DNA of 53,769 nt from NCBI GenBank assembly GCA_964472715.1, contig CAYYMT010000005.1, positions 1 to 53,769 on the forward strand, given 5' to 3'. The notes below the pieces were generated by a model. It saw nothing but the letters and a program-made list of their open reading frames with translations, made no database searches and was not told the DNA's origin. Both the position numbers and the translations under genes were made by a program. Of this stretch, positions 11,660 to 50,581 are shown one piece after another (position 1 is the stretch's first letter; the number at the start of each line of letters is the position of its first letter). The stretch is from an uncultured bacterium (GTDB taxonomy: Bacteria; Fidelibacterota; UBA2242; JAFGTP01).

Positions 11660-11674
11660 AAAACAGGGCTCATT

Positions 11675-14840: not shown

Positions 14841-14847
14841 ACCAAAG

Positions 14848-17659: not shown

Positions 17660-17660
17660 A

Positions 17661-23753: not shown

Positions 23754-24529
23754 AAAAGCAGTTAGACCATATTAAAACTCATTTTACTATTTATAAAAGC
23801 CTCGGGTATATGCTCTTTTTCCTGTTGGTTTTTGCCCTGTTTTTTACCTGGTCCGCGAACTGGTGTCATTACCGGAATTTTTTCGCGCTGGATTCTGCCA
23901 GGATTAATGGCAATTACCTGGTGGCCAGCGACCGTATCATCAAAACCGGCAATATTCATAAGAAAATGAATGTGCTCACCACTGATTGCAAGCAAATTCG
24001 TACAAATCTGGAGACTCATCCCTATGTGAAAGCCGCCATTGTCAGCAAGCGATACCCCAACAAATTGACCATCAATATCAAGGAGCGAATGCCAATCGCT
24101 TACCTAAACACCGGCAATCTGCTGTTAATCGACAAAGAAGGTATTGTGCTTCCTCTGCCTGATAAAGTTATCCGCAATCAACTGCCGGTAATCACCATCG
24201 CATCGGATTCCACATATAAAGTAATTCCCGGAGAAAACCTGGAATCACCGGAAATCAACAAAATTACAGAATTGATGATTGACACCTATGTCGTCTCCAG
24301 GCCTCTTTACAATATTATCTCGGAAATTCGCTATAATCTCAATACAAGAGAATTGATACTGTTTAACAAGGACACCGGGAACCCAATTTATTTCGGTAAT
24401 AAAAATTTTGATAAAAAAATGTATACCTTAGCCGAATTCCAGCAAATGTTAACCGGAAAAAAACGGCTAAGCGATTACAGGTATATTGATTTGCGCTGGA
24501 ACCGGCAAGTCGTAGTAAAGGAAATATAG
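23750..24529 (+). CDS. ftsQ: Cell division protein FtsQ (POTRA domain)
   Basis: 259 aa with an N-terminal TM segment and a POTRA-like segment (HPYVKAAIVSKRYPNKLTINIKERMPIAY). It lies between murC and ftsA. Confidence 0.8.
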   Translation: MKKQLDHIKTHFTIYKSLGYMLFFLLVFALFFTWSANWCHYRNFFALDSARINGNYLVASDRIIKTGNIHKKMNVLTTDCKQIRTNLETHPYVKAAIVSKRYPNKLTINIKERMPIAYLNTGNLLLIDKEGIVLPLPDKVIRNQLPVITIASDSTYKVIPGENLESPEINKITELMIDTYVVSRPLYNIISEIRYNLNTRELILFNKDTGNPIYFGNKNFDKKMYTLAEFQQMLTGKKRLSDYRYIDLRWNRQVVVKEI

Positions 24530-24536
24530 GACAGTT

Positions 24537-25808: not shown

Positions 25809-25825
25809 TTTATAACGGAGGAAAC

Positions 25826-32728: not shown

Positions 32729-33895
32729 ATGATACCAAGAAGAAACTTAATCCGGGCCCTAAAAAAATCAATCAAACAGCCCGGGTATGCTGTTCAAAAT
32801 CTGACGAAAAGACTGAAAGCCCATGTTGCTTATGCCTTTGGAAAGGGCCGTTCATCCTGGCCGGAAACCCTTTCATTGTTCATTACATACAGGTGTAATC
32901 TCAAATGTAAAATGTGTGGCCAGTGGGGTGATCAGGGTATCTTTAAAAACTATAACAAAAATGTCCTCAGCCACCAGTTGTCAACCGATACTATCCGCCG
33001 ACTTATTGTTGATGTAAAGCCATTTAAACCCAATATAACACTGTTCGGCGGCGAGCCGCTTATTGATCCGAACATTATGACAATCATTCGCGTCATAAAA
33101 GCAAACGGCCTGCGCTGCAATCTGATCACCAATGGTACCTTATTGGAAAAATACGCCGCTGAAATTCTTAACAGCGGTCTGGATGAAATCATTTTTTCCC
33201 TTGACGGCCCTTCTGAAATTCATGATTCTATCCGGGGAATTCCAGGTGCTTACGCCAGGGCTTTAAAAGGGTTTGATCTGCTCAACAAATTAAAAAAACA
33301 GAACACCAGTAATAAACCGTTTATCAATATTAACAGCACCATATTCGAAGATAATTATGGAAACTTACAAGAAACAATCGAGGCCGCCCGGGAATTTCAA
33401 CCTGACAATTTGACTTTTCATCATCTTTTATTTCTGGACAACAACCGCATTCCTGTTTTTCAAAAAAAATTCCAAGAACAGTTTGGCCAGATTCCTTATG
33501 ACTGGAATGGTTTTGGTGTTGACCAAATTCCAAATATCGATCCGATGGCCATTATATCTCAGATAAAAAACATTAAGGCGATCAAACATCCTTTTAACGT
33601 GGGCTTTTATCCGAATTTAAATAATGACGATATAAAAAAATGGTATACATCTTTTGAGTTCAAATCCAACAGTTATCGCAACAGGTGTCTCAGTTTATGG
33701 ATGACCGCTTATATTTTTCCCGACGGAACAGTTCGCCCTTATCATACCATGAATTATGATATTGGTAATATTAATAATGAATCATTTTTGACAATATGGA
33801 ATAATAATAAATTCCAAAAATTGCGGCGTCATATCATCAAGCACAAATCTTTTGAAGTATGCTCTAAAGGCTGCACGGAATTTTTCCGATATTAA
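32729..33895 (+). CDS. Radical SAM enzyme with a degenerate SPASM/twitch-like C-terminus
   Basis: It carries a CxxxCxxC cluster (YRCNLKCKMCGQWG), a GGEPL SAM-binding motif, and C-terminal Cys residues (RCLSLW...PDGTVRPY...VCSKGC). Confidence 0.85.
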   Translation: MIPRRNLIRALKKSIKQPGYAVQNLTKRLKAHVAYAFGKGRSSWPETLSLFITYRCNLKCKMCGQWGDQGIFKNYNKNVLSHQLSTDTIRRLIVDVKPFKPNITLFGGEPLIDPNIMTIIRVIKANGLRCNLITNGTLLEKYAAEILNSGLDEIIFSLDGPSEIHDSIRGIPGAYARALKGFDLLNKLKKQNTSNKPFININSTIFEDNYGNLQETIEAAREFQPDNLTFHHLLFLDNNRIPVFQKKFQEQFGQIPYDWNGFGVDQIPNIDPMAIISQIKNIKAIKHPFNVGFYPNLNNDDIKKWYTSFEFKSNSYRNRCLSLWMTAYIFPDGTVRPYHTMNYDIGNINNESFLTIWNNNKFQKLRRHIIKHKSFEVCSKGCTEFFRY

Positions 33896-33959: not shown

Positions 33960-34325
33960 ATGAAAAAGATATTGATTATAGATGACGATTATGAAATCCG
34001 TGAAATACTTGCCACTTATTTGACCGACCAAAATTTTGAAACTGAAACCGCAGAAAATCTTACAACTGCTGAACAAAAAGTTGTTGCTTTTAAGCCGGAC
34101 CTGATTTTGTTGGATATGATTCTACCTGACGGACATGGAAATGATTTTTTACAAACTTTACAAAAGAAAAATATCAAAATTCCGGTGATCATGGTTACCG
34201 GTGTAACGGAAAAAGATGTCGCTCTTAAATCCTTAGAGTTAGGCGCCACTGACTATATAACCAAACCTATAGATTTACAATATTTATCGACGAGTGTTAT
34301 CGCAAAATTATTAACTGCATTATAA
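33960..34325 (+). CDS. Single-domain response regulator (CheY-like receiver only)
   Basis: 121 aa with an IIDDD acidic pocket, LILLDMILPDG (phospho-acceptor Asp), VIMVTG, and YITKP (conserved Lys). It has no output domain. Confidence 0.9.
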   Translation: MKKILIIDDDYEIREILATYLTDQNFETETAENLTTAEQKVVAFKPDLILLDMILPDGHGNDFLQTLQKKNIKIPVIMVTGVTEKDVALKSLELGATDYITKPIDLQYLSTSVIAKLLTAL

Positions 34326-34338
34326 AATCAGGGATTAA

Positions 34339-35559
34339 ATGCATATAAAGAACATCATTAATCCAGGATATTTTTTCTTCAGTATTCTACTAATCCTGCT
34401 CGTAAATAATGGAATGGCGGCCAATGGTGATTATCAGCTGCGGGTGGGAGACAAAATTCAGATTACTTACATGGACCTTGATGAAAATAATAATTATGTA
34501 GAACGTCAGGATAATTTTACGATTTATAGTGACGGCACCGTTCGGCACTCCATTATCGGAAAAATCAAATTAACACAACTGAGTACGCAACAAGCGGAAT
34601 CCAAATTATACCGGGCATTGGAAAAATATTATACTAATCCCAGAGTAAGTTTGGTTCTGCTGGAGAAAAGTTCCATTGAAGTCCTTTTATACGGCGCTGT
34701 AAGTAACAGCGGTATCATCAAGACGCCACCGGGTACAAAAGTAGCCGAATTTTTACTGACTGAAGGGAAAATGAAAACCGAGGCCGATCTCAGCAAAATC
34801 CAGATCATCAGTGAGCAGGGGGAGAAAAACCAGTTCAGCCTGCCTGATTTTCTTTATAATAATGATACCTCGCAAAACAAACCCTTAAAAAATAATGATA
34901 AGATCATTGTGCCAACCTATGCCGATCGTAATTTCACAAATATCGTTGCTGATGATTATGTATTGAAATTTGGAAATGTCATAAAAATCATTATTTATGA
35001 ACGCAGTAAAGGGATTAACGGTGACAACAGCACTGATATTTTAACCCTAGATGAAGAAGGGTATATTTACCATAACCTGATTGGGAAAATCCATCTTGGC
35101 GGATTGAATATAGAAACTGCCGAGCAACAAATTACACAGGCGGCCCGGGAATATATGCAGGATCCGGTGGCTGAAATTTCAATTGTCAATATCAGTTCCC
35201 GCCAGGTTTATATTTTTGGCGAAGTCAATAACCCTGGGTACCATCCTTTAAAAGGCACTATTAAATTATCAGAATTTATTGCTAAATCGGCTGGTGGTAT
35301 GAAACAAACGGCTGATATTAAAAATATTATGGTCAACCGTAAAAATGGCCACCGCTACACTTTTAATTTTGAAGATTTTCTTTATGACCGAGACGACAGC
35401 GGAAACCTGGAACTGGAAGATGGGGACAGGATTATTGTACCTCCCAGCAGACAGGGCCTGGGTTATAAAATATCCGAATCCTTACGACGTTATTACTGGA
35501 TATTACAATTTTTCACAACCACAATTTCCCTATATTTGTTGGTCCAAAACCTGAAGTAA
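34339..35559 (+). CDS. Polysaccharide export protein (Wza-like; Poly_export/SLBB repeats)
   Basis: It has a signal peptide and two repeats of the Y.L..GD.I.I motif (YQLRVGDKIQITY and YVLKFGNVIKIII). SLBB-like segments follow (VYIFGEVNNPGYHPL, GDRIIVPP). Confidence 0.75.
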   Translation: MHIKNIINPGYFFFSILLILLVNNGMAANGDYQLRVGDKIQITYMDLDENNNYVERQDNFTIYSDGTVRHSIIGKIKLTQLSTQQAESKLYRALEKYYTNPRVSLVLLEKSSIEVLLYGAVSNSGIIKTPPGTKVAEFLLTEGKMKTEADLSKIQIISEQGEKNQFSLPDFLYNNDTSQNKPLKNNDKIIVPTYADRNFTNIVADDYVLKFGNVIKIIIYERSKGINGDNSTDILTLDEEGYIYHNLIGKIHLGGLNIETAEQQITQAAREYMQDPVAEISIVNISSRQVYIFGEVNNPGYHPLKGTIKLSEFIAKSAGGMKQTADIKNIMVNRKNGHRYTFNFEDFLYDRDDSGNLELEDGDRIIVPPSRQGLGYKISESLRRYYWILQFFTTTISLYLLVQNLK

Positions 35560-35562
35560 ATT

Positions 35563-38553
35563 ATGACACAGTATGAATTAAATTTTAATGATTATTGGCG
35601 GATAATTAAAAAGAAGAGATGGTTAATTATCTTTACCGCTGTAATGCTGACTTTTTTCAGTCTGTTGTTTACCATCATTAACAAGCCAACACCCATATAT
35701 GAAGCCACATCCAGTATTCAAATCGAGAAAAACACCTCCCTCACCGGTCTGTACATGGAAAGTGTCTCCTGGAATTATGGCGGTGATCTCGCCACCCGCG
35801 CAGCAGTTCTCAAAAGTTATAATATGATCGAAAAAGCAGCCAAGGATTTGGGGCTGATTGATTCGAACCTCACCAGTGAAGAAATTAAACAGAATAAAAA
35901 ATATTTCAATATCATCGAAGGACTGAAATCCCGTGTCACCACCGAACAGGAAGGCTACACCAATATCATAAATATCAATGTGAGAAGCCATCAGCCGGAA
36001 TTGGCCCGTGACCTCGCAAACTCCCTGGCCCGTACTTACCAGCGGGAAAATTTTATTCAAAAAAATGCAAAAACCAACAATGCCATCAACGCGCTCAAGC
36101 AACAACTTGAAAATGCCGAAGAAGATTATCAGGCAACCGAGTTGGAACTTCAAAAGTTCCGGCAAAAAAATAAATTTTTAACCCTTCTTGGAAAATCCAA
36201 TATACTGTCAGAAAATATTCTCAAGAAAGAAAAGAAAATAGAAGAACTCAGTTCCGATATTCAAAATATTAACCAGGCAATAAAAAAAATCCGGCTGGAT
36301 GAAAGATATTTACAATACCTGTCTCTGAATTTACTACTGTATAATAAAAACAATGTGCTGGCCTCCCTGCAAACCAATTTGGACAAATACAACCGTCAGT
36401 TAGATGAATTACGGCAATATTACACTGCTGAGCATCCAAAAGTAAAAAATTTGATAGTGCAATCCAATGTACTGGAAAAAAACATTATTGAGGAATTGGT
36501 TTCTTTCCAGCAAACTCTGCAGGAAATTCGTTTACAGGAGACCAAAAAACTGGAACAACTGAATCGCGAATATAACGCCTTACCGGCTTTAAGTCAGGAA
36601 ATCGAGAATCTGCAACGGGAACTGGAAACCAGCCGTAATATCTATGAAAAATTAAAAGTCAACTATTTGCAATCAATGGTCAAAAAAACAGAAAACATTC
36701 AGGAAGTTTTTCTAATTCGACCCGCTTTTCTGCCAACTAATCCAATTAACGCCATCAGACTCACACCCACAGGCCTGGCCGGTCTGATCATCGGCATAAT
36801 TTTCGGAATTATTTTAGCCTTCATTGCTGAGACCCTGGATACGACTTTTCGAACAATTGATGATATCGAGCAAACCTTAGGAACTACTGTTCAGGGTATT
36901 ATCCCATTTATCGACGCCAATGATTTTAAATCCACTCTCTACAGCGATGAAGAGGAGGATATTTCACCTGAAATAATTCAGAACCGCACCCGCCTGATGA
37001 CCCATTTTGCGCCGAAATCAACAATTGCCGAATCTTATCGCAGCCTGCGGACAAATATCAATTTTTCTTTAATGGAAAAAAATTACAAAACAATTCTGGT
37101 GACATCATCGGTTGCCGGTGAAGGTAAAACCACCACCGCCACCAATCTGGCCCTGTCCATGGCGCAAACCGGATTAAGGACATTGCTTGTTGAAGCTGAT
37201 TTGCGTAAGCCAAGAGTATCAAAAACACTTGGTATTGAGAGAGTTCCCGGCCTGACAGATTATATCTTGAATCGGGAACCACTGGAGGGATGTATTCGGG
37301 ACATGAGTGATTTATTGATGGGCAGCCTTGGCCAGGATACTATGAAAGAAGATGCTATTCCCGGAATTGAATACCTCAATATTTTACCGGCGGGAAAAAT
37401 AGAACGAAACCCATCGGAGATCATCGCCGGAAAAAAACTGGACACACTGATCAAAACAGTCAGGGACCAATACGACATTGTAATATTCGACTCGGCGCCA
37501 ATTATTCAGGCCACTGATACCGTCGTGCTGGCGTCAAAAGTAGACACCAACCTGATTGTCTACTACCAGGGAAAAATATCCCGCCACACATTACGACGGG
37601 CAAAAAACCAGCTGGAATTAATAAAATCTTCTGTTCTTGGTATTGTCATCAATGGAATGCGGGCTGATATCAGTTCTGATTATGTGGATTATAAATACAA
37701 ATACGATTATCTCTACAGCTATGGTGACCACGACCAGCTGGAAGAAACAGGATGGCTCAGCAAGATTAAAACCATCTTTATCAAACCGGAAACCAATATT
37801 CATCATACATTCATTTCCAGAATAAAAAAATTACCGGTATTTTTTGTCATTGCCTTAATATCCTTGTTTGGATTAATCGGATTATACAGGATAAACGCCA
37901 GTAAGGATGAAAAATCAGAAGCATTGCAAACAGTGCAATCCCCAGATCAGCCGGCATCGGTGAATCAAACACAAACATCACCAGTAAAACTCAAAGAGTT
38001 ACAGGAACAACACAATATTCGTCCTGATGAGGAACCGGCAGAACCGGTTACAAATCAGCAGGAGAGCCCGGTCCGAACAGTAAAAAAGCAACCTTCCGGT
38101 GCGACATTCGATCAATCTGTGGATGATGATCATATTCTACAAACGGATATCAATGCGGGTTACACATACCAGGTTTTCAGGACCACGGAAAAATCAGTGG
38201 CCGTAGAGAAAACAGAGCGGCTGCGGGAAACAGGGCTAAAGACCTTCATGTCAATCGACTATTCAAACCCTGAAATTAAGCATTACCGGGTGTGTCTGAA
38301 TTTATTCAAAAGCAGACCGGAAGCAGAAAAGGCCATTGCATCTATCAGAAGAGCAGAATTAAAAAGTGGCCTGGAAATTTTATACTTACCCTATTCCATC
38401 ATTCTGAGTGCTGAAAACTATGATGAAAGCAATCCTTATCATTTTAGGGCCAACAATTTTTACCTGGCCGGCGCTTTTAAGAATAGCCTTACTGCCAATA
38501 TTTTTCGTAAAAGCACAGAAGAATTACACCAAAATGATATTGCTAAACGATGA
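35563..38553 (+). CDS. Wzc-like polysaccharide co-polymerase / BY-tyrosine kinase fused to an extra TM segment and a SPOR-like C-terminal domain
   Basis: The order is Wzz-type N-terminus with TM1, a long coiled coil, TM2, then a P-loop kinase (VTSSVAGEGKTTTATNLA, LLVEADLRKP, IVIFDSAPI). The Tyr cluster DYVDYKYKYDYLYSY follows, then a third TM segment, a P/Q-rich linker, and YTYQVFRT...HYRVCLNLFKSRPEAEKA. Confidence 0.85.
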   Translation: MTQYELNFNDYWRIIKKKRWLIIFTAVMLTFFSLLFTIINKPTPIYEATSSIQIEKNTSLTGLYMESVSWNYGGDLATRAAVLKSYNMIEKAAKDLGLIDSNLTSEEIKQNKKYFNIIEGLKSRVTTEQEGYTNIININVRSHQPELARDLANSLARTYQRENFIQKNAKTNNAINALKQQLENAEEDYQATELELQKFRQKNKFLTLLGKSNILSENILKKEKKIEELSSDIQNINQAIKKIRLDERYLQYLSLNLLLYNKNNVLASLQTNLDKYNRQLDELRQYYTAEHPKVKNLIVQSNVLEKNIIEELVSFQQTLQEIRLQETKKLEQLNREYNALPALSQEIENLQRELETSRNIYEKLKVNYLQSMVKKTENIQEVFLIRPAFLPTNPINAIRLTPTGLAGLIIGIIFGIILAFIAETLDTTFRTIDDIEQTLGTTVQGIIPFIDANDFKSTLYSDEEEDISPEIIQNRTRLMTHFAPKSTIAESYRSLRTNINFSLMEKNYKTILVTSSVAGEGKTTTATNLALSMAQTGLRTLLVEADLRKPRVSKTLGIERVPGLTDYILNREPLEGCIRDMSDLLMGSLGQDTMKEDAIPGIEYLNILPAGKIERNPSEIIAGKKLDTLIKTVRDQYDIVIFDSAPIIQATDTVVLASKVDTNLIVYYQGKISRHTLRRAKNQLELIKSSVLGIVINGMRADISSDYVDYKYKYDYLYSYGDHDQLEETGWLSKIKTIFIKPETNIHHTFISRIKKLPVFFVIALISLFGLIGLYRINASKDEKSEALQTVQSPDQPASVNQTQTSPVKLKELQEQHNIRPDEEPAEPVTNQQESPVRTVKKQPSGATFDQSVDDDHILQTDINAGYTYQVFRTTEKSVAVEKTERLRETGLKTFMSIDYSNPEIKHYRVCLNLFKSRPEAEKAIASIRRAELKSGLEILYLPYSIILSAENYDESNPYHFRANNFYLAGAFKNSLTANIFRKSTEELHQNDIAKR

Positions 38554-38876
38554 AGAAAAAAATTATCAAAAACAAACGGGATCAATTATGGATAGTCATA
38601 TCACTGACCCTCGCTATAATCATTAGTTTTTTAGTCTCCTATTTATCTCAAAAATCCAATTTAAAAATTAATTACGGAGCGCCTGCCGACACCAGCATTT
38701 ACCAAAGAGGCTCCGCCATTCGCAAAGAAACCCATAACAGACAGAATTATGAACGGGACTACCGTCAAAAAAGCAGGGAATGGCAGAACCGGTATTCCAA
38801 AATTTTGGAAAACAAAGAAGATGAAACAAATCTGAAACCCTTGCAATTGCAAGATACAAATAAAAACGAAAATTGA
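38550..38876 (+). CDS. Hypothetical membrane-anchored protein with an R/Q/N/E-rich tail
   Basis: 108 aa with a basic N-terminus and one TM segment (LWIVISLTLAIIISFLVSYL), then a polar tail. Both its start and its stop overlap neighbouring genes. No family was recognised. Confidence 0.5.
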   Translation: MKKKIIKNKRDQLWIVISLTLAIIISFLVSYLSQKSNLKINYGAPADTSIYQRGSAIRKETHNRQNYERDYRQKSREWQNRYSKILENKEDETNLKPLQLQDTNKNEN

Positions 38877-40291
38877 ATTATAAATCTTTCGAATCTCAAA
38901 ATAAATTCATTATTTTTCTGGCTTTGTCCGGGTCAGCAATTTTAGCCTTTGTGCTGAACAAAACCGACATCCAGTTTGCCCTGATGGCGACGATCGGCCT
39001 GGGCCTGATCATTACAACATTTTTTAACACCAAACTGGCGATTTATATCTTAATTTTTTCAATGCTGCTCAGCCCGGAATTCGGATCAAGGACGACCCGG
39101 GGATCAGGTTTTACGATAAGACTGGACGATATTATTCTTTCCATTATTGTCTTTACCTGGATCGCAAAAATAGCGATTTACCAGGAATTTAAACTTATCC
39201 ACCGTACAAAAATACATAAAGCCATCGCCTATTATATGACGGTTTGTATTATATCCACAGGCCTTGGCATGCTCCGGGGGGATGTTAATTATCTCACCGG
39301 TTTTTTCTTCCTATTTAAATATTTTCAATATTTTGTCATTTTTTTCATGGTATTCTCATACATTAAAACTAAAGAGGAAGTTCAACATTTTTATTTTGCT
39401 TTGCTGGCCACTTTTATCATTGTGGTGATCATCGCAATTGCACAGATTCCCGGCGGTGACCGTCTAACAGCTCCTTTTGAAGGAGAAGGTGGTGAACCGA
39501 ACACTTTAGGCGGATATTTACTCCTGATCATTGCAGTAAATCTGAGTATCGTCTTTTACAGCGATACTATTAAAAAATTGTGGATCAAGCGTCTGGTGCT
39601 GTTTGCCACAATGATTTCCGTAATTCCTTTTTTGCTGACCAATTCACGGGGATCATGGGTTGCCGGAATACCGGTGGCGATATCTTATATTTTACTACGG
39701 AAGAGCCGGAATATTGCGCTGATGTTTGTTCTTTTCTTACTGATTTTATCACCCTTTTTACTGCCGGAGACAGTAATTAACCGGGTTACCTATACTTTTC
39801 AGGAGCAGCGGGGATATGCCCGCTCACTACAGGAAGAAGTCGGCGGAATTATCCTGGACACATCCGCTTCAGAGCGACTTCGCAGTTGGCGGGATGCTTT
39901 TCAGGCTTTGCCGAAGCATATTATTTTTGGATATGGCATCACAGGCTGGCGTTTTCTGGACGCCCAGTATATACGGGTTCTGATTGAAACCGGTTTAATC
40001 GGCCTGATCGCTTTTTTTTATCTCTTATATGCATTGACTTCGGAAATCTGGCGTGTCTACAAAACCACTGAGGATTCTTTTTTTAAAGCGCTCTCCCTGG
40101 GTTTGTTCATCGGCATGCTGGGAATATTGTTTCATTGTATCGGAGCCAACACTTTTATTATTATCCGTATCATGGAACCCTTTTATTTATTGTGCGGAAT
40201 GGTTATGGCTGTTCCCAAACTGGAAGGGAGAAAGGAATTTTTTAATGAGCAACAGCAAATTCAAGCGGAATTACATCCCCAAAGTGCGTGA
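38873..40291 (+). CDS. O-antigen ligase/polymerase family membrane protein (Wzy-like)
   Basis: 472 aa with about 10-12 TM segments and a central loop containing LTNSRGSWVAG, which is Wzy_C-like. The start is TTG. It sits in an EPS locus. Confidence 0.65.
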   Translation: MNYKSFESQNKFIIFLALSGSAILAFVLNKTDIQFALMATIGLGLIITTFFNTKLAIYILIFSMLLSPEFGSRTTRGSGFTIRLDDIILSIIVFTWIAKIAIYQEFKLIHRTKIHKAIAYYMTVCIISTGLGMLRGDVNYLTGFFFLFKYFQYFVIFFMVFSYIKTKEEVQHFYFALLATFIIVVIIAIAQIPGGDRLTAPFEGEGGEPNTLGGYLLLIIAVNLSIVFYSDTIKKLWIKRLVLFATMISVIPFLLTNSRGSWVAGIPVAISYILLRKSRNIALMFVLFLLILSPFLLPETVINRVTYTFQEQRGYARSLQEEVGGIILDTSASERLRSWRDAFQALPKHIIFGYGITGWRFLDAQYIRVLIETGLIGLIAFFYLLYALTSEIWRVYKTTEDSFFKALSLGLFIGMLGILFHCIGANTFIIIRIMEPFYLLCGMVMAVPKLEGRKEFFNEQQQIQAELHPQSA

Positions 40292-40529
40292 AGATCTTTT
40301 GTTCAAAGAACTGGACGATGGCGGGGTTGTCTATATTCCGGCCACAGATGAATGCCACTCACTGAATGCAACCTCAGCTTATATCTGGGCCCTTTGTGAT
40401 GGTAAGCATTCCGTCGGCACTATCATAGACGCTATTAAGCGGGATTTTAATACTTTTGATATTTCACCGGAAGATGCGGTATTTAATTTGCTGCACCAAC
40501 TGCAAGACAAAAATTTACTTGAGGATTGA
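40245..40529 (+). CDS. PqqD-family protein (RiPP recognition element-like peptide chaperone)
   Basis: 94 aa. The pattern KVREDLLFKELDDGGVVYIPATDECHSLNATSAYIWALCDGKHSVGTIIDAIKRDF...EDAVFNLLHQLQDKNLL matches the PqqD winged-helix pattern. GGAAGGGAGAAAGGAA lies upstream of ATG 40245. The 5' part of ORF 40053-40529 overlaps wzy and is discarded. Confidence 0.7.
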   Translation: MSNSKFKRNYIPKVREDLLFKELDDGGVVYIPATDECHSLNATSAYIWALCDGKHSVGTIIDAIKRDFNTFDISPEDAVFNLLHQLQDKNLLED

Positions 40530-41380
40530 TGACAAACTTACAGGTTTCTTTCAACAACAATTCCATTGGCATTTCCATTCCTGAGGAAATAATTTCATTG
40601 GTTCATCAGAATATATTCTCAGAAGTTATTTCTGATTGTCTTAAGGACCAGGTTGATTTTTCAGTGCTGCGCAAGGATAATGTTTTTCATCTGTTCCACC
40701 AGAACCGGGAAATATACTCTACTGAAAATCCTCATGAACTGGTTTATACGCTGGAATGGAATGTTGTTGATGAACTGATAAACTTGAGTACCGGTGTTTT
40801 TCAAATTCACGGCGCAACTCTCAATCACAGGGATAAAAGTTTTCTTTTCATTGGTGAACCGGGAAGCGGAAAAACCAGTTTGTCCATTTTATTATCAAAA
40901 CTCGGCATGAATTTTTTGTCCGATGAAGTAAGCCTGGTGGATTTGCACAATTACAATGCTTATCCTTTTCCGCGTAACCTGATTATCAAACAGCATCTTC
41001 TAGAATTAATTTCAATTCCCGCTGCCCATCAGCCTTTATTAATTGATGCCAAGGAAGATCAGAAAGAAAAGGCCTTCTTTTTACCGATCAGTCACTTTGC
41101 GGGCAACAATCAGTTTTCAGTAAATAAGGTTGCCAAAATATTTTTTTTAGCGCCGGTTAATGATATAGGATTCAACATTCAATTAATTGGCGACCATCAG
41201 GCATTTAACCGGATAACACCACAGATTTTTAATATCGGCGAAATACAGTATTTTCATGAAAAAATCATTCATTTGATAACGGAAATTCCTACTTTTATAT
41301 TAGAAATTGAAAAACCATTATTATTGTCTGATCTCCGGCAGCAAAAGTTGCTGGAGAAAATTTTAAGCGAGGTGAATTGA
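40529..41380 (+). CDS. HPr kinase/phosphorylase C-terminal-domain-like P-loop kinase (HprK-related)
   Basis: HGATLNHRDKSFLFIGEPGSGKTSLSILLSKLGMNFLSDEVSLVD parallels the HprK motif HG..V...G.GVLI.G.SG.GKS..AL.L...GH.LV.DD. Its ATG overlaps the PqqD TGA (TGATG). Confidence 0.7.
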   Translation: MTNLQVSFNNNSIGISIPEEIISLVHQNIFSEVISDCLKDQVDFSVLRKDNVFHLFHQNREIYSTENPHELVYTLEWNVVDELINLSTGVFQIHGATLNHRDKSFLFIGEPGSGKTSLSILLSKLGMNFLSDEVSLVDLHNYNAYPFPRNLIIKQHLLELISIPAAHQPLLIDAKEDQKEKAFFLPISHFAGNNQFSVNKVAKIFFLAPVNDIGFNIQLIGDHQAFNRITPQIFNIGEIQYFHEKIIHLITEIPTFILEIEKPLLLSDLRQQKLLEKILSEVN

Positions 41381-42507
41381 TGATCACAAATTTCCGTGGA
41401 TTGCTTAATGATAAAATCAGAATTGAAGCATTTCAACAAGCTATTAATGAACTGGTCACTCCTGAACATTCCGTACTGGAAATCGGTTTCGCCCTGGGGA
41501 CTTATTCCTTTTTTGCAGCCCGCCGGAATGCTCGTAAAGTGTATGCTATTGAAATGGATCATATTTATTATGCCGGCATCGAAATCGCGAGACGGAACGA
41601 TCTATTGGACAAAATAGATTTTATCAAAGGAAAATCAACTGAGATAGATATTGATGAAAAAGTTGATTTTATCATAATGGAAGACTATTCTCCTTTTTTT
41701 ATTTACGAAAATCTGGAGAAAACCATTATTGACGCCCGCAGGCGCTTTTTGAAACCCGGTGGTAGATTTATCCCCAATGAGATTATTCTGAAAGTGGCAC
41801 CGGTTGAAGCCTTTTCATTACATGAACAGATCGATCTTTGGCAAAAAGAAAACAACGTGCTTTATAAAATAAATTGGGATTATACCACGGAACTGGCTTT
41901 TAACCGGCCTTATTACGCGGAATCCCATCCATTGAAAATGCTGGCGGGTGAATCAATCATAAAAACAATTGATCTCTCCAAAGATTCAAACTTCCCATTT
42001 GTATTCCAGGCAGACGTTGAAATTACCGGCGACGGAACGCTTCATGGGCTGGCGGGGTGGTGGGATACTTATTTCACACCCACACAATCCTTTTCCAATT
42101 CCCCTGCCGAACCCAATAATACCTGGGGGCAGATGTTTTTTCCTTTCCAATACCCGATCAAAGTTCGAAAAGGAGACCGGCTTAATTTTCAGATTCAGGT
42201 GCTGGAATCCCGGAAATCAGGAAATATTGATTTTAAATGGCAGGTCGAACATTCTTCATCGATACAAGAATATAATTCCTTCCGGGGGAGTTTCATGCCC
42301 GCCATGTCGGAAATATCAACCGCCAGCAAAACTCAATCTAAACTTAACACCGAGGGTAAGATAGCCTACTATATTCTTGATTTATTGCATAAAGGACTGG
42401 ATATTAATACAATTGGCACAAAGCTTGACAAAAAATTTGCTAATAGTCGTGTCAGCAGAGAAAAATATCAGGAAATTCTGGATAATATCCTGGAACAATT
42501 TATTTAA
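41380..42507 (+). CDS. Protein arginine N-methyltransferase (PRMT)-like class I SAM methyltransferase
   Basis: It has LLNDKIRIEAFQQAI (PRMT N-terminal helix), VLEIGFALGTYSFFAARRNARKVYAIE (motif I/post I), and VDFIIMEDYSPFFIYE (double-E loop equivalent). Further matches are RRFLKPGGRFIP, GLAGWWDTYF, and NTWGQMFFPF (THW-loop equivalent). Its ATG overlaps the upstream TGA. Confidence 0.7.
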   Translation: MITNFRGLLNDKIRIEAFQQAINELVTPEHSVLEIGFALGTYSFFAARRNARKVYAIEMDHIYYAGIEIARRNDLLDKIDFIKGKSTEIDIDEKVDFIIMEDYSPFFIYENLEKTIIDARRRFLKPGGRFIPNEIILKVAPVEAFSLHEQIDLWQKENNVLYKINWDYTTELAFNRPYYAESHPLKMLAGESIIKTIDLSKDSNFPFVFQADVEITGDGTLHGLAGWWDTYFTPTQSFSNSPAEPNNTWGQMFFPFQYPIKVRKGDRLNFQIQVLESRKSGNIDFKWQVEHSSSIQEYNSFRGSFMPAMSEISTASKTQSKLNTEGKIAYYILDLLHKGLDINTIGTKLDKKFANSRVSREKYQEILDNILEQFI

Positions 42508-42626
42508 AATATTACCCACTAAGCTCCTCGTGAAATGGGAGTGACGTGGCGGAGCCATATCTAAACAAATATTATAAACACTCAATTTCAAGAAGCCCCA
42601 TTTTTTACGAGCAACAGACCCGGATT

Positions 42627-44072
42627 ATGATTCTAAAAAAAATTTTCATATCGTCCTCAATATGGATACTGCTTTCCACAGTCTATTCCCGTATTCTGAC
42701 GTTTACTGTGACCATTATTTTAGCCAAATTACTTGTTCCGGAAGATTTTGGTATTGTGGCTTTTGCGATGCTGATAACCGGGACAATTTCAATTTTTCGC
42801 GAGCTGGGCCTAAACAGATCTTTGATCTACGTCAAGGGTGATCAAAAAGAGTATGGCAATACAGCTTTTTGGTTAATACTGGCATGGTCTGCTTTCTTAT
42901 ATTTTCTTGTATTAATATTCGCCCGGCCCATTGCCGCTTTCTTTGATGAATCAATCCTAAAACAGATCCTTCCTGTTTCATCTCTGTCAATTATAATCTT
43001 ATCGGTTACAGAAGTGCCCCTGGCTCTCAGTGAAAAAAATTTAAACTTCAGGAAAAGAGTATTACCTGATATAATCAAAGTCACAACTTATACCATAATT
43101 ACTCTACTTCTTGCTTCCAGAGGGCTTGCCTATTGGTCTATAATTTTTGGTAATCTGGCCTCTGATATTATATATGCCCTATCCACTCTTATTATTATGC
43201 GTTGGTTTCCACATTTTGTATTTTCAAGGCCGGCTGCGAAAAAATTACTCTTTTACGGAAAAAATATAATTGGCATGGGCCTGACCCATTTTACAATCGG
43301 CCACATAGATGATACTTTTGTTGGAAAGATATTGGGAACCAATTTTTTAGGCCACTACACCTTCGCTTTTAGAATTGGCAATTTGTTATCAAAAAACCTG
43401 TCAGGCATTTTCAGTAAGGTTCTGTTTCCAATATATAATAAAATTTCACATTCAAAATGGGATTTAGCCAATGCAATAACCAAATTTTATAACCAACTGA
43501 TCATAATAAGTATTCCTGTTAGTGTTGGTATGATTTTTTTCCTACCGGACTTAATTACTGTTTTTTATGACCATAAGTGGGACATGGCAATCATACCTTT
43601 ACAATTGATCACACTGCAAGGGCTGATTCGCAGCCTTGGAATACCAATCGGCCCCTTCTATTTGTCCATCGGGAAACCAGGCATTAGTTTAAAAATTAGT
43701 ATTGCACAATTAATTTTAATTGTAATCTTAATCTATCCTTTTATCCTTAAATGGCAGTTGATTGGCGTTTGTATTGTCAATATCATCGGCCGTATTTTTA
43801 CTGTAGCGACACATTATGTACTGTCAAAAAAATATTTGGGTTTAAAATATGGTAAAATGCTGATAAAAACACTTAATGTTCTGGCAGTATCTATCTTAAT
43901 CGCTTTCATTATCTCAAATTTTGCCAAAACACAACTGACAATTTCAACAATATTAATCAAAGGGATGATTTATTCAATAATAACCTATCTAATATTATAC
44001 GTCACACAGCATGAAACAAGACTATTATTGAATGATATTTTCAACCAGATAAGAGATAAAGTTAAGGAATAG
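42627..44072 (+). CDS. Polysaccharide flippase (Wzx; MOP superfamily)
   Basis: About 12-14 TM segments with a typical Polysacc_synt N-terminus (SSIWILLSTVYSRILTFTVTIILAKLLVPEDFGIVA). The start is taken at ATG 42627 rather than ORF-track 42546. Confidence 0.8.
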   Translation: MILKKIFISSSIWILLSTVYSRILTFTVTIILAKLLVPEDFGIVAFAMLITGTISIFRELGLNRSLIYVKGDQKEYGNTAFWLILAWSAFLYFLVLIFARPIAAFFDESILKQILPVSSLSIIILSVTEVPLALSEKNLNFRKRVLPDIIKVTTYTIITLLLASRGLAYWSIIFGNLASDIIYALSTLIIMRWFPHFVFSRPAAKKLLFYGKNIIGMGLTHFTIGHIDDTFVGKILGTNFLGHYTFAFRIGNLLSKNLSGIFSKVLFPIYNKISHSKWDLANAITKFYNQLIIISIPVSVGMIFFLPDLITVFYDHKWDMAIIPLQLITLQGLIRSLGIPIGPFYLSIGKPGISLKISIAQLILIVILIYPFILKWQLIGVCIVNIIGRIFTVATHYVLSKKYLGLKYGKMLIKTLNVLAVSILIAFIISNFAKTQLTISTILIKGMIYSIITYLILYVTQHETRLLLNDIFNQIRDKVKE

Positions 44073-49913: not shown

Positions 49914-50162
49914 ATGCCCTCATTACAAGTTAGAGAAGTTCCTGAAGTTCTATACAAAAAATTAACGCAACGAGCAAAAGAACAGCACCGTAGTATTGCT
50001 CAGGAAACGATTCATATTCTATCCGAAAAATTGGATATTGAAGAATCTCCAAAGAAGAAACAGGAAAAACTATTGGAGGAAATAAACAAACTTCATAAGC
50101 AATATGATTTCTCTGACCTTCCTGACCCGGTAGAAATAATTCGAAAAGACAGGCAGAGATGA
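49914..50162 (+). CDS. vapB: Ribbon-helix-helix antitoxin (VapB/FitA-like)
   Basis: 82 aa. The N-terminal PSLQVREVPEVLYKKLTQRAKEQHRSIAQE is an RHH pattern. AGGAG lies upstream, and the stop overlaps the start of the PIN gene. Confidence 0.7.
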   Translation: MPSLQVREVPEVLYKKLTQRAKEQHRSIAQETIHILSEKLDIEESPKKKQEKLLEEINKLHKQYDFSDLPDPVEIIRKDRQR

Positions 50163-50581
50163 ATATAATTTTAGATGCAAATGCAGCAGCCAGTTATGTA
50201 TTCAGATCACATTTTCATGATAAAATTGAAAATATCATATTACAAGCAAACAATATTTTAAGCCCTGATTTATACATAGCAGAAATATCTAATGTATTAT
50301 GGCAGCACTATCAATTTAAAAATTTACCTCCTGATATTTGTGAAAAACTTTTAGATATATCAATGAATATAATTAACGAATATCTAAATTCTTATAATTT
50401 ATTCAGAGAAGCTTTTTCACTAGCAACTATTACATCTCATCCTGTTTATGATTGTCTTTATTTAATTTCTGCAAGAAGGATGAACTTTCCGCTTTTAACC
50501 GTGGACAAAAAACTTATCAAAATCGCTAAAAAACACCATATCAAAGTAATCGATATTTACAACGAGAACTTAATTAAATGA
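50159..50581 (+). CDS. vapC: PIN-domain ribonuclease toxin VapC
   Basis: 140 aa with four acidic PIN residues in context: IILDAN, YIAEISN, VYDCLYL and LTVDKKL. Confidence 0.8.
   Translation: MNIILDANAAASYVFRSHFHDKIENIILQANNILSPDLYIAEISNVLWQHYQFKNLPPDICEKLLDISMNIINEYLNSYNLFREAFSLATITSHPVYDCLYLISARRMNFPLLTVDKKLIKIAKKHHIKVIDIYNENLIK

What the first reader, a model, noticed from the sequence alone, without database searches (positions are those of the whole stretch)
40245..42507. Translationally coupled PqqD-like / HprK-like kinase / PRMT-like methyltransferase cassette between wzy and wzx
What the sequence shows:
- Three consecutive ORFs are joined by identical ATTGATGA stop/start overlaps at 40527-40531 and 41378-41382.
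- The first ORF starts inside the end of the Wzy-like gene.
- Their predicted products are a PqqD-type peptide-binding domain, a P-loop kinase with the HPr-kinase C-terminal-domain motif, and a methyltransferase with PRMT hallmark loops.

What established knowledge adds:
- PqqD/RRE domains present peptide substrates to RiPP tailoring enzymes.
- HprK homologues phosphorylate Ser on lasso-peptide precursors.
- PRMTs methylate protein arginines.

This window has no lasso cyclase, leader protease, or evident precursor ORF, and the cassette sits in a Wzx/Wzy EPS locus. From memory, PqqD plus HprK-related kinase pairs are catalogued in NCBIfam/TIGRFAMs as uncharacterised systems, sometimes in EPS loci. 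I do not recall a PRMT-like third partner. The inference is a peptide- or protein-directed phosphorylation/methylation module of unknown target, linked to polysaccharide assembly.
Basis: partly seen in the sequence, partly recalled or inferred. Interest (0 to 1): 0.75.

Follow-up and report, generated by a model that had tools for sequence, protein, structure and literature searches.

The report
Peptide-tailoring gene trio inside polysaccharide operon
Three tightly coupled genes (a peptide-docking protein, a kinase-like enzyme and a methyltransferase) are a stripped-down copy of an undescribed peptide-modifying cassette found in many phyla. In Marinimicrobia it is built permanently into the conserved core of a surface-polysaccharide operon, which suggests that a modified small protein takes part in polysaccharide assembly.

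Summary
Three translationally coupled ORFs lie at 40245-42507, and they evolve under purifying selection (dN/dS 0.07-0.35).

**The three products**
- ORF1 is a PqqD-type peptide-binding domain.
- ORF2 is a P-loop kinase of the HprK/PEPCK fold. Its nearest curated family is HprK-related kinase A, but it scores below that family's cut-off.
- ORF3 is a PRMT-fold methyltransferase.
- The PRMT hallmark residues are only partly kept in orthologues, so arginine as the methyl acceptor is doubtful.

**Context**
- The trio is the 3' end of an invariant nine-gene block: radical-SAM/SPASM, response regulator, Wza, Wzc, a ~110-aa membrane protein, Wzy_C, PqqD, kinase, methyltransferase.
- Every Marinimicrobia locus with enough flank has this block. 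The glycosyltransferases and Wzx downstream vary.
- Seven or more other phyla carry the same trio. There it comes with an NTP_transf_5 nucleotidyltransferase and a small precursor that has a twin-arginine-signal-like leader. Several of these copies again sit beside Wza/Wzc.
- Deltaproteobacterial relatives sit in an Scm-like radical-SAM RiPP cluster.

**Reading**
- This is an RRE-guided peptide or protein phosphorylation/methylation module recruited to polysaccharide assembly.
- The likeliest substrate is the co-conserved 108-aa protein at 38550-38876. That assignment is inferred, not shown.
- I found no description of the cassette in the literature I could search. I rate it a new variant of a known kind.

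The parts
40245..40529 (+). ORF1: stand-alone PqqD-type RiPP-recognition-element protein, 94 aa.
   Evidence: Pfam PqqD E 1.5e-10, 41.6 bits against a gathering score of 23.4. The best NCBIfam hit is ScmD (40 bits, below its cut-off of 100). Orthologues are present in every related locus. dN/dS is 0.065.
40529..41380 (+). ORF2: soluble P-loop kinase-like protein of the HprK/PEPCK fold, in the HprK-related-A/ScmC-like clade, 283 aa.
   Evidence: NCBIfam HprK_rel_A E 9.8e-14, 51 bits against a cut-off of 200. AlphaFold model pLDDT 94.5. Foldseek returns PEPCK at E 3e-7 and HprK/P 1kkl at E 3e-5. H94, G109, G114, K115, D132 and R149 are invariant across phyla; G112 and T116 are at least 90% conserved. 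E133 is also invariant in a second alignment.
41380..42507 (+). ORF3: PRMT-fold SAM-dependent methyltransferase, 375 aa. The catalytic core is residues about 10-300.
   Evidence: Pfam PRMT_C 58.6 bits. PDB phmmer gives CARM1 and PRMT3 at E about 1e-25. Model pLDDT 84; Foldseek gives PRMT3, PRMT1 and PRMT6 at E about 2e-26 with TM 0.66-0.70. E101 and D102 are invariant, E110 is not conserved, and THW is replaced by NTW.
42349..42504 (+). C-terminal three-helix PqqD-like domain of ORF3 (residues about 324-375), joined by a disordered linker (303-319).
   Evidence: Model secondary structure shows helices H324-337, H342-352 and H360-374. hhalign of this domain family against the PqqD family gives probability 94.7%, E 5.7e-8 over 49 columns.
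40525..40532 (+). Stop/start overlap (TGATG) between ORF1 and ORF2.
   Evidence: Conserved as an overlap or short gap in orthologues.
41376..41383 (+). Stop/start overlap (TGATG) between ORF2 and ORF3.
   Evidence: Orthologues show the same overlap.
38550..38876 (+). Conserved 108-aa single-pass membrane protein and candidate substrate. It has a basic N-tail, a TM helix at residues 15-33, and a C-terminal region with an invariant GS.xR.E...R..YE...R motif (A56 and T61 at 90% or more).
   Evidence: No Pfam or NCBIfam family. Always co-occurs with the trio. Overlaps wzc and wzy by 4 nt each.
38873..40291 (+). Wzy_C-family polytopic membrane protein (polymerase or ligase), 472 aa. It is the most conserved member of the block.
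   Evidence: Pfam Wzy_C 43.4 bits. Identity to orthologues is 75/72/56/53/53%, the highest of the nine proteins in four of the five loci compared.
35563..38553 (+). Wzc-type tyrosine autokinase and chain-length protein, with an extra C-terminal TM helix and a SPOR-like domain, 996 aa.
   Evidence: SPOR E 8.6e-4. The same Wzc-plus-SPOR architecture lies next to the cassette in Methylomirabilota locus L074.
34339..35559 (+). Wza-type outer-membrane polysaccharide export protein.
   Evidence: Pfam Poly_export and SLBB.
33960..34325 (+). Single-domain response regulator.
   Evidence: Pfam Response_reg 98 bits.
32729..33895 (+). Radical-SAM/SPASM enzyme with no RRE domain of its own. It is the first gene of the conserved block and a possible PqqD client.
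   Evidence: Pfam Radical_SAM and SPASM. All NCBIfam hits are far below their cut-offs. Nearest PDB entries are CteB, BlsE and SkfB. Conserved at this position in every locus with enough flank.
42546..44072 (+). Wzx flippase. This is the first gene of the variable part of the locus, not of the conserved block.
   Evidence: Pfam Polysacc_synt_3 204 bits. Its position and orientation differ between loci.

Best explanation
The trio is an RRE-guided peptide or protein tailoring module. It is the Marinimicrobia derivative of a widespread, uncharacterised RiPP-type cassette.

**The ancestral cassette**
- a precursor with a twin-arginine-signal-like leader
- a PqqD protein
- an HprK-related P-loop kinase
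- a PRMT-fold methyltransferase
- an NTP_transf_5 nucleotidyltransferase

**Proposed mechanism**
1. The stand-alone PqqD protein, and the PqqD-like C-terminal domain of the methyltransferase, dock a peptide segment of the substrate in the cytoplasm.
2. The kinase uses ATP to phosphorylate a hydroxyl side chain.
3. The PRMT-fold enzyme uses SAM to methylate a nitrogen nucleophile. This may be an arginine, but that is not secure.

**What is different in Marinimicrobia**
- The cassette has lost the Tat-like precursor and the nucleotidyltransferase.
- It is welded into an invariant nine-gene core of a Wzx/Wzy/Wzc polysaccharide operon.
- Its most likely substrate here is the co-conserved 108-aa bitopic membrane protein encoded between wzc and wzy (38550-38876). 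The modified form would act with the unusually conserved Wzy_C protein and Wzc.

**Shown versus inferred**
- Shown: gene reality, folds, conserved catalytic residues, co-occurrence, and precursor-bearing relatives.
- Inferred: the chemistry, the identity of the substrate, and any role of the radical-SAM enzyme.
For: **Families and folds**
- Sequence and fold placements.
- The kinase keeps its Walker-A Gly/Lys, H94, D132 and R149 across phyla.
- The methyltransferase keeps its SAM-binding motifs and the first Glu.
- The methyltransferase C-terminus is PqqD-like by hhalign, probability 94.7%.

**Selection and co-occurrence**
- Purifying selection on all three genes.
- The nine-gene block is present in every Marinimicrobia locus with enough flank, found two independent ways: from the methyltransferase and from the small protein (17/17 loci with enough downstream flank and 10/10 with enough upstream flank).

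**Relatives in other phyla**
- The trio occurs in KSB1, Methylomirabilota, Pseudomonadota, Gemmatimonadota, Planctomycetota, Acidobacteriota and Desulfobacterota.
- There it comes with NTP_transf_5 and small ORFs carrying an RRxFLK..AAYxxP leader. The leader model also found L045 and L074, which were not used to build it.
- Fusions exist: PqqD::kinase inside an MNIO/YcaO RiPP cluster, and kinase::NTP_transf_5.
- An Scm-like radical-SAM cluster contains a precursor, a signal-peptidase-like gene, the PRMT-like methyltransferase and an ABC exporter.

**Recurrent polysaccharide neighbours**
- L037 and L074 have Wza and Wzc; SPOR was detected on the L074 Wzc. L046 has Wzc, Wzy and glycosyltransferases. 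L033 has glycosyltransferases and a Wzx homologous to the window's.

**Complementary distribution**
- The Tat-like precursor is absent wherever the small membrane protein is present, and the reverse.

**Precedent**
- HprK homologues phosphorylate lasso precursors, and an NTP_transf_5 enzyme glycosylates the phosphate (PMC8498205).
Against: - Nothing here demonstrates phosphorylation or methylation.
- The kinase scores far below the HprK_rel_A cut-off. Its closest folds include PEPCK, and relatives also match the small-molecule kinase family FomB.
- The second catalytic Glu and the THW His of PRMTs are not conserved.
- The small protein shows no homology to the Tat-like precursors (hhalign probability 0.2%).
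- The positive-inside rule puts the small protein's conserved domain outside the cytoplasm. Modification would then have to precede insertion.
- The small protein's gene is separated from the trio by wzy.
- Perfect co-occurrence within one phylum cannot be told apart from vertical inheritance.
- The complementary distribution is confounded with phylogeny.
- The radical-SAM gene is not orthologous to ScmF.
Confidence: 0.45

Rival explanations
1. The substrate is a small Tat-leader-type precursor, as in the other phyla, encoded elsewhere in the Marinimicrobia genome. The operon position reflects co-regulation with polysaccharide export rather than a substrate inside the locus.
For: All non-Marinimicrobia cassettes have such a precursor next to them. 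RiPP precursors are sometimes unlinked. The small protein is not homologous to those precursors.
Against: No such ORF exists in the 53.8-kb window or in about 45 Marinimicrobia loci of up to 21 kb. In every other lineage the precursor lies within about 2 kb of the cassette.
Confidence: 0.15
2. The trio is a regulatory modification system. It acts on a cytoplasmic part of the assembly machine itself: the Wzc tyrosine-rich tail or linker, Wzy_C loops, or the response regulator.
For: The cassette lies next to Wza and Wzc in Marinimicrobia and Methylomirabilota, with a SPOR-bearing Wzc detected in the window and in L074, and next to Wzc in Planctomycetota. The trio proteins are soluble. ORF1 overlaps the wzy 3' end.
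Against: PqqD/RRE domains are known to bind short leader-like peptides. Cassettes also occur with no polysaccharide genes nearby (L039, L041, L042, L043). Those copies carry their own precursors.
Confidence: 0.15
3. The kinase-like and PRMT-fold enzymes decorate the polysaccharide or its lipid-linked repeat unit with phosphate and N- or O-methyl groups. PqqD serves only as a scaffold.
For: PEPCK is the closest fold, and HprK-like relatives match the small-molecule kinase family FomB. The PRMT arginine-binding residues are not conserved. The genes sit among sugar enzymes.
Against: There are two PqqD-type peptide-binding domains in the trio. Homologous cassettes sit in RiPP clusters with precursors. 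The trio belongs to the invariant block while the sugar-specific genes vary.
Confidence: 0.1
4. A true RiPP pathway: the radical-SAM/SPASM enzyme and PqqD cross-link a peptide, and the kinase and methyltransferase tailor it. The product is a secreted peptide unrelated to the polysaccharide.
For: The radical-SAM enzyme has no RRE of its own and shares the operon with a discrete PqqD. Its nearest PDB relatives include CteB and SkfB. Desulfobacterota relatives combine an ScmF-like radical-SAM enzyme with the PRMT-like methyltransferase.
Against: Five polysaccharide-assembly genes separate the radical-SAM gene from PqqD. The block has no protease or exporter. The only small ORF has no Cys and carries a TM helix. 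The radical-SAM gene is not orthologous to ScmF, and BlsE, a sugar enzyme, is an equally close relative.
Confidence: 0.1

Closest known systems
HPr-rel-A system (NCBIfam TIGR04352 HprK-related kinase A with TIGR04353 PqqD family chaperone; uncharacterised)
   Same: A PqqD protein is paired with an HprK-related P-loop kinase, and HprK_rel_A is the best NCBIfam hit for ORF2. Relatives share the NTP_transf_5 partner and Tat-like small ORFs.
   Different: ORF2 scores 51 bits against a cut-off of 200, and ORF1 scores 16 bits against 35 on TIGR04353. The window has no NTP_transf_5 and no Tat-like precursor. It adds a PRMT-fold methyltransferase, which is absent from the canonical locus L073. It is embedded in a polysaccharide operon.
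Lasso-peptide tailoring kinases and nucleotidyltransferase (paeninodin and ThcoK/SyanK kinases; pseudomycoidin kinase plus nucleotidyltransferase)
   Same: HprK homologues phosphorylate Ser of linear precursors, and an NTP_transf_5-type enzyme then adds hexose to the phosphate (PMC8498205). The gene combination of kinase, PqqD and, in relatives, NTP_transf_5 is the same.
   Different: The block has no lasso cyclase, B2 protease or lasso precursor. The kinase is only distantly related. The methyltransferase partner is different: lasso clusters use an O-methyltransferase of another fold.
SynChlorMet cassette (ScmC, ScmD, ScmE, ScmF)
   Same: ScmD is the best NCBIfam hit for ORF1. Orthologues of ORF2 carry faint Pfam ScmC hits. 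Desulfobacterota loci L038, L040 and L047 combine ScmD-, ScmF- and ScmC-like genes with the PRMT-like methyltransferase.
   Different: All scores are below the curated cut-offs. The window's radical-SAM enzyme is not ScmE- or ScmF-like (64-69 bits against 400). The window has no Gly/Cys-rich precursor.
Type I protein arginine methyltransferases (PRMT1, PRMT3, PRMT6, CARM1)
   Same: The Rossmann and beta-barrel architecture is shared (TM 0.66-0.70, E about 1e-26). The SAM-binding motif I, the post-I Glu and the first Glu of the double-E loop are conserved.
   Different: The second Glu and the THW His are not conserved in the family. The enzyme has an extra C-terminal PqqD-like domain. It is bacterial and linked to an RRE and a kinase. 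The acceptor atom is unknown.
PqqD/PqqE-type pairing of a discrete RRE with a radical-SAM/SPASM enzyme
   Same: An RRE-less radical-SAM/SPASM enzyme and a discrete PqqD lie in one operon.
   Different: The two genes are 6.3 kb apart. The block has no PqqA-like peptide, and a partnership has not been tested.
Bufferins (signal-peptide-bearing RiPP metallophores; PMC11626156)
   Same: This is a precedent for RiPP precursors whose leader is an export signal. The Met/His/Cys-rich cores of the type-A precursors resemble metal-binding peptides.
   Different: Bufferins use Sec signals and MNIO enzymes. This comparison applies to the relatives, not to the window, which lacks such a precursor.

Membership tests
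PqqD / RiPP recognition element (Pfam PF05402) | Profile match above the gathering score. | tested here: met
   41.6 bits against 23.4, covering profile positions 3-67 of 67.
PqqD / RiPP recognition element (Pfam PF05402) | Binds a leader peptide. | not testable with these tools
   No complex prediction or binding assay was available.
HprK-related kinase A (NCBIfam TIGR04352) | Score at or above the curated cut-off of 200 bits. | tested here: not met
   51.1 bits, E 9.8e-14. It is the best hit, but it covers only residues 72-256.
HprK-related kinase A (NCBIfam TIGR04352) | Neighbouring PqqD-family gene. | tested here: met
   ORF1 lies immediately upstream and overlaps ORF2. On TIGR04353 itself ORF1 reaches only 16 bits against a cut-off of 35.
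HPr kinase/phosphorylase superfamily (PEPCK-like P-loop fold) | Pfam Hpr_kinase_C sequence match. | tested here: not met
   No hit at E of 1 or less. TIGR00679 gives E 0.097.
HPr kinase/phosphorylase superfamily (PEPCK-like P-loop fold) | Fold similarity, plus a conserved His, Walker-A loop, Asp and Arg. | tested here: met
   Model pLDDT 94.5. Foldseek gives PEPCK at E 3e-7 and HprK/P 1kkl at E 3e-5. H94, G109, G114, K115, D132 and R149 are invariant across phyla.
Type I PRMT | Rossmann domain plus PRMT beta-barrel. | tested here: met
   PRMT_C 58.6 bits. phmmer gives CARM1 at 8e-26. Foldseek TM is 0.66-0.70.
Type I PRMT | Double-E loop: both Glu residues conserved. | tested here: not met
   E101 is invariant. 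E110 is present in the window, but orthologues have E, D, A, S, K, Q, R, P or G at that position.
Type I PRMT | THW loop. | tested here: not met
   The window has NTW. Relatives have TGW, TVW, NLW, TAY and others. Only the Trp or another aromatic residue is kept.
Type I PRMT | Methylates protein arginine. | not testable with these tools
   This needs an enzyme assay. The precursor in L047 contains no Arg at all.
Lasso peptide gene cluster | Asn-synthase-like cyclase, transglutaminase-like B2 protease and a lasso precursor. | tested here: not met
   None of these is among the Pfam-annotated genes between 27.8 and 53.6 kb. The Asn_synthase genes seen in some orthologous loci lie in the variable part.
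SynChlorMet cassette | ScmC, ScmD, ScmE and ScmF equivalogs above their cut-offs. | tested here: not met
   ScmD 40 bits against 100. ScmE and ScmF 69 and 64 bits against 400. ORF2 gives no ScmC hit.
Type-A cassette defined here (Tat-like-leader precursor, PqqD, HprK-like kinase, PRMT-like methyltransferase, NTP_transf_5) | Adjacent precursor with an RRxFLK..AAYxxP leader. | tested here: not met
   The leader HMM and a regular-expression scan find none in the window or in any Marinimicrobia locus.
Type-A cassette defined here (Tat-like-leader precursor, PqqD, HprK-like kinase, PRMT-like methyltransferase, NTP_transf_5) | Adjacent NTP_transf_5 gene. | tested here: not met
   An NTP_transf_5 HMM finds none in the window. 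Only L024 among Marinimicrobia loci has a weak hit, 32 bits.
Type-A cassette defined here (Tat-like-leader precursor, PqqD, HprK-like kinase, PRMT-like methyltransferase, NTP_transf_5) | Homologous PqqD, kinase and methyltransferase in the same order. | tested here: met
   HMMs built from the Marinimicrobia proteins detect all three in L033, L036, L037, L039, L041 and L046. L042 and L043 have all three in a different order.
Wzx/Wzy-dependent polysaccharide locus | Wza, Wzc, Wzy_C, Wzx and glycosyltransferases. | tested here: met
   Pfam and NCBIfam hits.

The most novel reading that the evidence does not exclude
The polysaccharide made by this operon is not free. The unusually conserved Wzy_C protein would act as a WaaL/PglL-like ligase. 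It would join the variable, Und-PP-built glycan to the conserved small membrane protein, or to a phosphoserine placed on that protein by the trio. The result would be a protein-anchored or protein-primed surface polysaccharide, whose acceptor must first be phosphorylated and methylated by an RRE-guided cassette. A weaker form of the same idea is that a post-translationally modified micro-protein is an obligatory subunit of a Wzy/Wzc machine.
Probability: 0.08. Interest if true: 0.85.

Novelty: new variant of a known kind. Interest (0 to 1): 0.62.

Why it matters
- **A tailoring cassette in a new setting.** RRE-guided tailoring enzymes are normally tied to secreted natural-product peptides. Here one is a fixed component of the polysaccharide-assembly core of a whole phylum of abundant marine bacteria. 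Relatives sit beside Wza/Wzc in at least three other phyla.
- **A possible new layer of control.** If the module modifies a small membrane protein of the assembly machine, that would be an unrecognised layer of control, or an unrecognised acceptor, in Wzx/Wzy pathways.
- **Leads for RiPP research.**
  - A bacterial PRMT-fold methyltransferase family that carries its own PqqD-like domain.
  - A family of candidate precursors with twin-arginine-signal-like leaders and Met/Gly/His/Cys-rich cores.
  - Fusions that tie the HprK-like kinase to PqqD and to NTP_transf_5.
- **Testability.** All of these can be tested directly by heterologous co-expression and mass spectrometry.

Tried and rejected
1. 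**Identical ATTGATGA junctions as a signal.** Rejected. The 8-mer occurs 13 times in the window against about 5 expected.
2. **Small protein homologous to the Tat-like precursors.** Rejected. hhalign gives probability 0.2%.
3. **A hidden Tat-like precursor in the window.** A regular-expression scan and a leader HMM over all six frames found none.
4. **NTP_transf_5 somewhere in the window.** None was found.
5. **Lasso cluster.** The block has no cyclase, protease or precursor.
6. **The radical-SAM gene as an ScmF orthologue.** Rejected. It scores 64 bits, against 303 bits for the L040 enzyme.
7. **Long (~690-aa) kinase homologues as kinase::methyltransferase fusions.** Rejected. They are kinase::NTP_transf_5 fusions. 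P0135 is not a PqqD fusion by BLAST.
8. **Promoter and terminator scan.** Terminator-like sites were at chance level, and the promoter-like sites gave no interpretable operon boundary.
9. **Literature.** Nine searches, on PqqD with HPr kinase, SynChlorMet, bacterial PRMT, PF14907, MNIO with Tat, and RRE surveys, found no description of this cassette.
10. **Metagenome scan with the full small-protein alignment.** It failed for lack of a conserved stretch. It was repeated with a sub-alignment.
11. **PRMT homologue P0038 (33% identity, canonical THW).** It lies outside any such context, so not every bacterial PRMT-like gene belongs to the cassette.

Full report
**1. The observation**

The three ORFs exist as described.
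- ORF1 is 40245-40529, 94 aa.
- ORF2 is 40529-41380, 283 aa.
- ORF3 is 41380-42507, 375 aa.
- Both junctions are TGATG stop/start overlaps within ATTGATGA, each preceded by GAGG.
- ORF1 begins 47 nt inside the Wzy_C gene, which ends at 40291.

The shared 8-mer is not remarkable in itself. It occurs 13 times in the window against about 5 expected. The coupling, however, is kept in orthologous loci.

The genes are under purifying selection. dN/dS against L012 and L013 is 0.065 for PqqD, 0.26-0.35 for the kinase and 0.08-0.13 for the methyltransferase.

**2. What the three proteins are**

*ORF1* is a PqqD domain. Pfam gives 41.6 bits against a gathering score of 23.4, and its best NCBIfam neighbour is ScmD.

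*ORF2* is a kinase-like P-loop protein.
- It has no Pfam Hpr_kinase_C hit.
- Its best NCBIfam match is HprK-related kinase A at E 9.8e-14, but only 51 bits against a cut-off of 200.
- A confident model (pLDDT 94.5) matches ATP-dependent PEPCK at E 3e-7 and HprK/P at E 3e-5. This is the PEPCK-like P-loop fold to which HprK belongs.
- H94, Walker-A residues G109, G114 and K115, D132 and R149 are invariant from Marinimicrobia to Planctomycetota. This argues for an active phosphotransferase.
- The family is large: 9,413 representatives at E of 1e-10 or better.

*ORF3* is a PRMT-fold enzyme.
- Pfam PRMT_C gives 58.6 bits. CARM1 and PRMT3 match at E about 1e-25 by sequence. Foldseek gives TM 0.66-0.70.
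- Motif I (EIGxxLGTY), the post-I Glu and the first Glu of the double-E loop (E101, followed by D102) are invariant.
- The second Glu (E110 in the window) is E, D, A, S, K, Q, R, P or G in orthologues, and THW is replaced by NTW, TGW or others. The 'PRMT hallmark loops' therefore belong to this one sequence, not to the family, and arginine as the acceptor is uncertain.
- The last ~50 residues form a three-helix domain behind a disordered linker. This domain matches the helical part of PqqD (hhalign 94.7%, E 5.7e-8). The methyltransferase thus has its own RRE-like module.

**3. Context in the window and in Marinimicrobia**

The trio is the 3' end of a co-directional, tightly packed block:
- radical-SAM/SPASM (32729-33895)
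- response regulator (33960-34325)
- Wza (34339-35559)
- Wzc with an extra TM helix and a SPOR-like domain (35563-38553)
- a 108-aa protein with no family (38550-38876)
- Wzy_C (38873-40291)
- PqqD, kinase, methyltransferase

The close relatives that carry a taxon label are almost all Marinimicrobia (Neomarinimicrobiota, Fidelibacterota) MAGs.

Every such locus with enough flank has the same nine genes in the same order. The genes downstream (glycosyltransferases, Wzx, AsnB-like genes, ABC/Wzt) differ.

A scan started independently from the small protein returned 23 metagenome loci.
- 17 of 17 with enough downstream flank have small protein, Wzy, PqqD, kinase and methyltransferase.
- 10 of 10 with enough upstream flank have radical-SAM, response regulator, Wza and Wzc.

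The small protein has three parts:
- a strongly basic N-tail
- one TM helix
- a C-terminal region with the invariant motif GS.xR.E...R..YE...R (Ala56 and Thr61 at 90% or more)

The Wzy_C protein has the highest identity to its orthologue in four of the five loci compared (75/72/56/53/53%). That is odd for a repeat-unit-specific polymerase in loci whose glycosyltransferases vary.

**4. The trio elsewhere**

Homologues of the methyltransferase at 24-35% identity occur in these groups:
- KSB1 (L033)
- Methylomirabilota (L036, L037, L074)
- Pseudomonadota (L039)
- an unclassified bacterium (L041)
- Longimicrobiales and Gemmatimonadales (L042, L043)
- Acidobacteriota (L045)
- Planctomycetales (L046)
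- Desulfobacterota (L038, L040, L047)

A PqqD gene and an HprK-like gene lie next to almost all of them. Two more partners recur in these loci.
- One is an NTP_transf_5 (PF14907) gene.
- The other is a 56-115-aa ORF with a twin-arginine-signal-like leader (RR[EKA]FLK..TAAYxxPxΦ, then A-x-A). It ends in a short Met/Gly/His/Cys/Trp-Ser-rich C-terminus.
  - An HMM of the leader also found L045 and L074, which were not used to build it.
  - Only generic TAT-signal models hit these peptides.

Three further lines tie these genes to RiPP-type chemistry.
- In Desulfobacterota the methyltransferase sits in an Scm-like cluster. The cluster has:
  - an ScmD-like PqqD
  - an ScmF-like radical-SAM enzyme (303 bits)
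  - an ScmC-like P-loop protein
  - a Gly/Cys-rich precursor
  - a signal-peptidase-like gene
  - an ABC exporter
  - an NTP_transf_5 gene
- A PqqD::kinase fusion (P0079) lies in an MNIO/YcaO cluster with four Tat-like precursors.
- Four ~690-aa proteins are kinase::NTP_transf_5 fusions.

Known chemistry supplies the precedent. HprK homologues phosphorylate Ser of linear lasso precursors, and the NTP_transf_5-type enzyme of pseudomycoidin adds hexose to that phosphate (PMC8498205).

Polysaccharide neighbours recur.
- L037 and L074 have Wza and Wzc directly downstream. The L074 Wzc carries a SPOR domain.
- L046 has Wzc, Wzy, a WecA-like gene and glycosyltransferases.
- L033 has glycosyltransferases and a Wzx homologous to the window's.
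- Other copies (L039, L041, L042, L043) have no obvious polysaccharide genes.

**5. How it most likely works**

I commit to an RRE-guided peptide or protein tailoring module.
1. PqqD, and the methyltransferase's own PqqD-like domain, recruit a peptide segment.
2. The P-loop enzyme phosphorylates a hydroxyl.
3. The PRMT-fold enzyme N-methylates.

In Marinimicrobia the ancestral Tat-like precursor and NTP_transf_5 are absent. The only conserved small ORF in the block is the 108-aa membrane protein. It is present exactly where the Tat-like precursor is absent. I therefore take it as the most likely substrate, with the modified protein acting in the Wzy_C/Wzc machine.

Shown:
- the genes, their folds and their conserved catalytic residues
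- co-occurrence of the nine genes
- relatives that carry precursors

Inferred:
- the chemistry
- the substrate
- the involvement of the radical-SAM enzyme

Against the substrate assignment:
- The small protein is not homologous to the precursors.
- Its conserved domain is predicted to lie outside the cytoplasm.
- Synteny within one phylum cannot be separated from vertical inheritance.

The rivals are listed with their tests in the rival-explanations section. They are an off-locus precursor, regulation of Wzc or Wzy, decoration of the glycan, and a separate radical-SAM RiPP.

**6. Comparison and novelty**

The nearest catalogued system is the uncharacterised HPr-rel-A pair in NCBIfam. The window's proteins fall below both of its cut-offs and lack its NTP_transf_5 partner. 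A canonical HprK_rel_A locus (L073) has no PRMT-like gene.

No curated model covers the methyltransferase. Its best NCBIfam hit is 27 bits.

Nine literature searches found no description of the cassette.

I rate it a new variant of a known kind. It is a RiPP-type RRE-plus-kinase cassette with a new PRMT-fold, RRE-bearing partner, fixed in the core of a polysaccharide operon. Function remains untested.

Noticed in passing
window 32729-33895: A radical-SAM/SPASM gene heads the polysaccharide operon. It has no RRE of its own, only a 47-aa N-terminal extension. It is conserved at this position in all Marinimicrobia loci. Its nearest PDB relatives are CteB, BlsE and SkfB, and all NCBIfam hits are far below their cut-offs.
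   Followed up: partly
window 38873-40291: The Wzy_C-family protein has the highest identity to its orthologue in four of the five loci compared (53-75%), while the downstream glycosyltransferases and Wzx vary. That is unusual for a polymerase and suggests a conserved acceptor, as with WaaL- or PglL-type ligases.
   Followed up: partly
window 35563-38553 (residues about 750-996); L074 8464-10455: Wzc carries an extra C-terminal TM helix and a SPOR-like domain. The same Wzc-plus-SPOR architecture lies next to the cassette in a Methylomirabilota locus.
   Followed up: partly
L033 784-954; L039 11062-11253; L036 11061-11285; L037 2634-2939; L046 4331-4734; L041 11135-11464(-); L042 10926-11240; L043 11037-11384; L045 7608-7760; L074 5626-5847: A family of small ORFs with a twin-arginine-signal-like leader (RRxFLK..AAYxxP) and short Met/Gly/His/Cys/Trp-Ser-rich C-termini lies next to PqqD, kinase, methyltransferase and NTP_transf_5 cassettes in many phyla. 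They look like uncurated RiPP precursors, and the cores may bind metal.
   Followed up: partly
L038 628-8325; L040 6388-14142; L047 7061-10387: Desulfobacterota carry an Scm-like cluster: a PqqD, an ScmF-like radical-SAM enzyme, an ScmC-like P-loop protein, an 89-100-aa Gly/Cys-rich precursor, an S26 signal-peptidase-like gene, the PRMT-like methyltransferase, an ABC exporter and NTP_transf_5. The precursor in L047 has no arginine.
   Followed up: partly
L048 1103-9452: A RiPP cluster contains four Tat-like-leader precursors, an MNIO (MbnB/TglH-like) gene, YcaO with a nitroreductase, NTP_transf_5, and a 483-aa PqqD::HprK-like fusion (P0079).
   Followed up: no
proteins P0115, P0146, P0155, P0219: These ~690-aa proteins fuse the HprK-like kinase domain to an NTP_transf_5 domain. 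The fusion ties the two activities together.
   Followed up: partly
L024 8279-9358: One Marinimicrobia locus has a weak NTP_transf_5-like ORF (32 bits) directly after the methyltransferase. It may be a remnant of the ancestral four-gene cassette.
   Followed up: no
L033 1524-2186: A 220-aa ORF lies between PqqD and the kinase in the KSB1 locus. By eye it looks like an IS200/RayT-type transposase. This was not tested.
   Followed up: no
L011 6602-7054, and L027, L029, L063, L069: Some Marinimicrobia loci carry a second, ~150-aa distant paralogue of the small membrane protein directly upstream of it.
   Followed up: no
window 50159-50581: A PIN-domain gene is embedded among the glycosyltransferase genes of the variable part of the locus.
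   Followed up: no
window 11198-27349 and 5311-9177: Upstream lies what looks like a complete dcw cell-division and cell-wall cluster. FtsZ at 25826-27349 was confirmed; the rest is inferred from gene sizes and order. A 1288-aa PorU-like type IX secretion protein lies at 5311-9177.
   Followed up: partly
L010 9165-10004: The source annotation splits the kinase gene, but it reads as one intact ORF. This looks like an annotation artefact rather than a pseudogene.
   Followed up: partly
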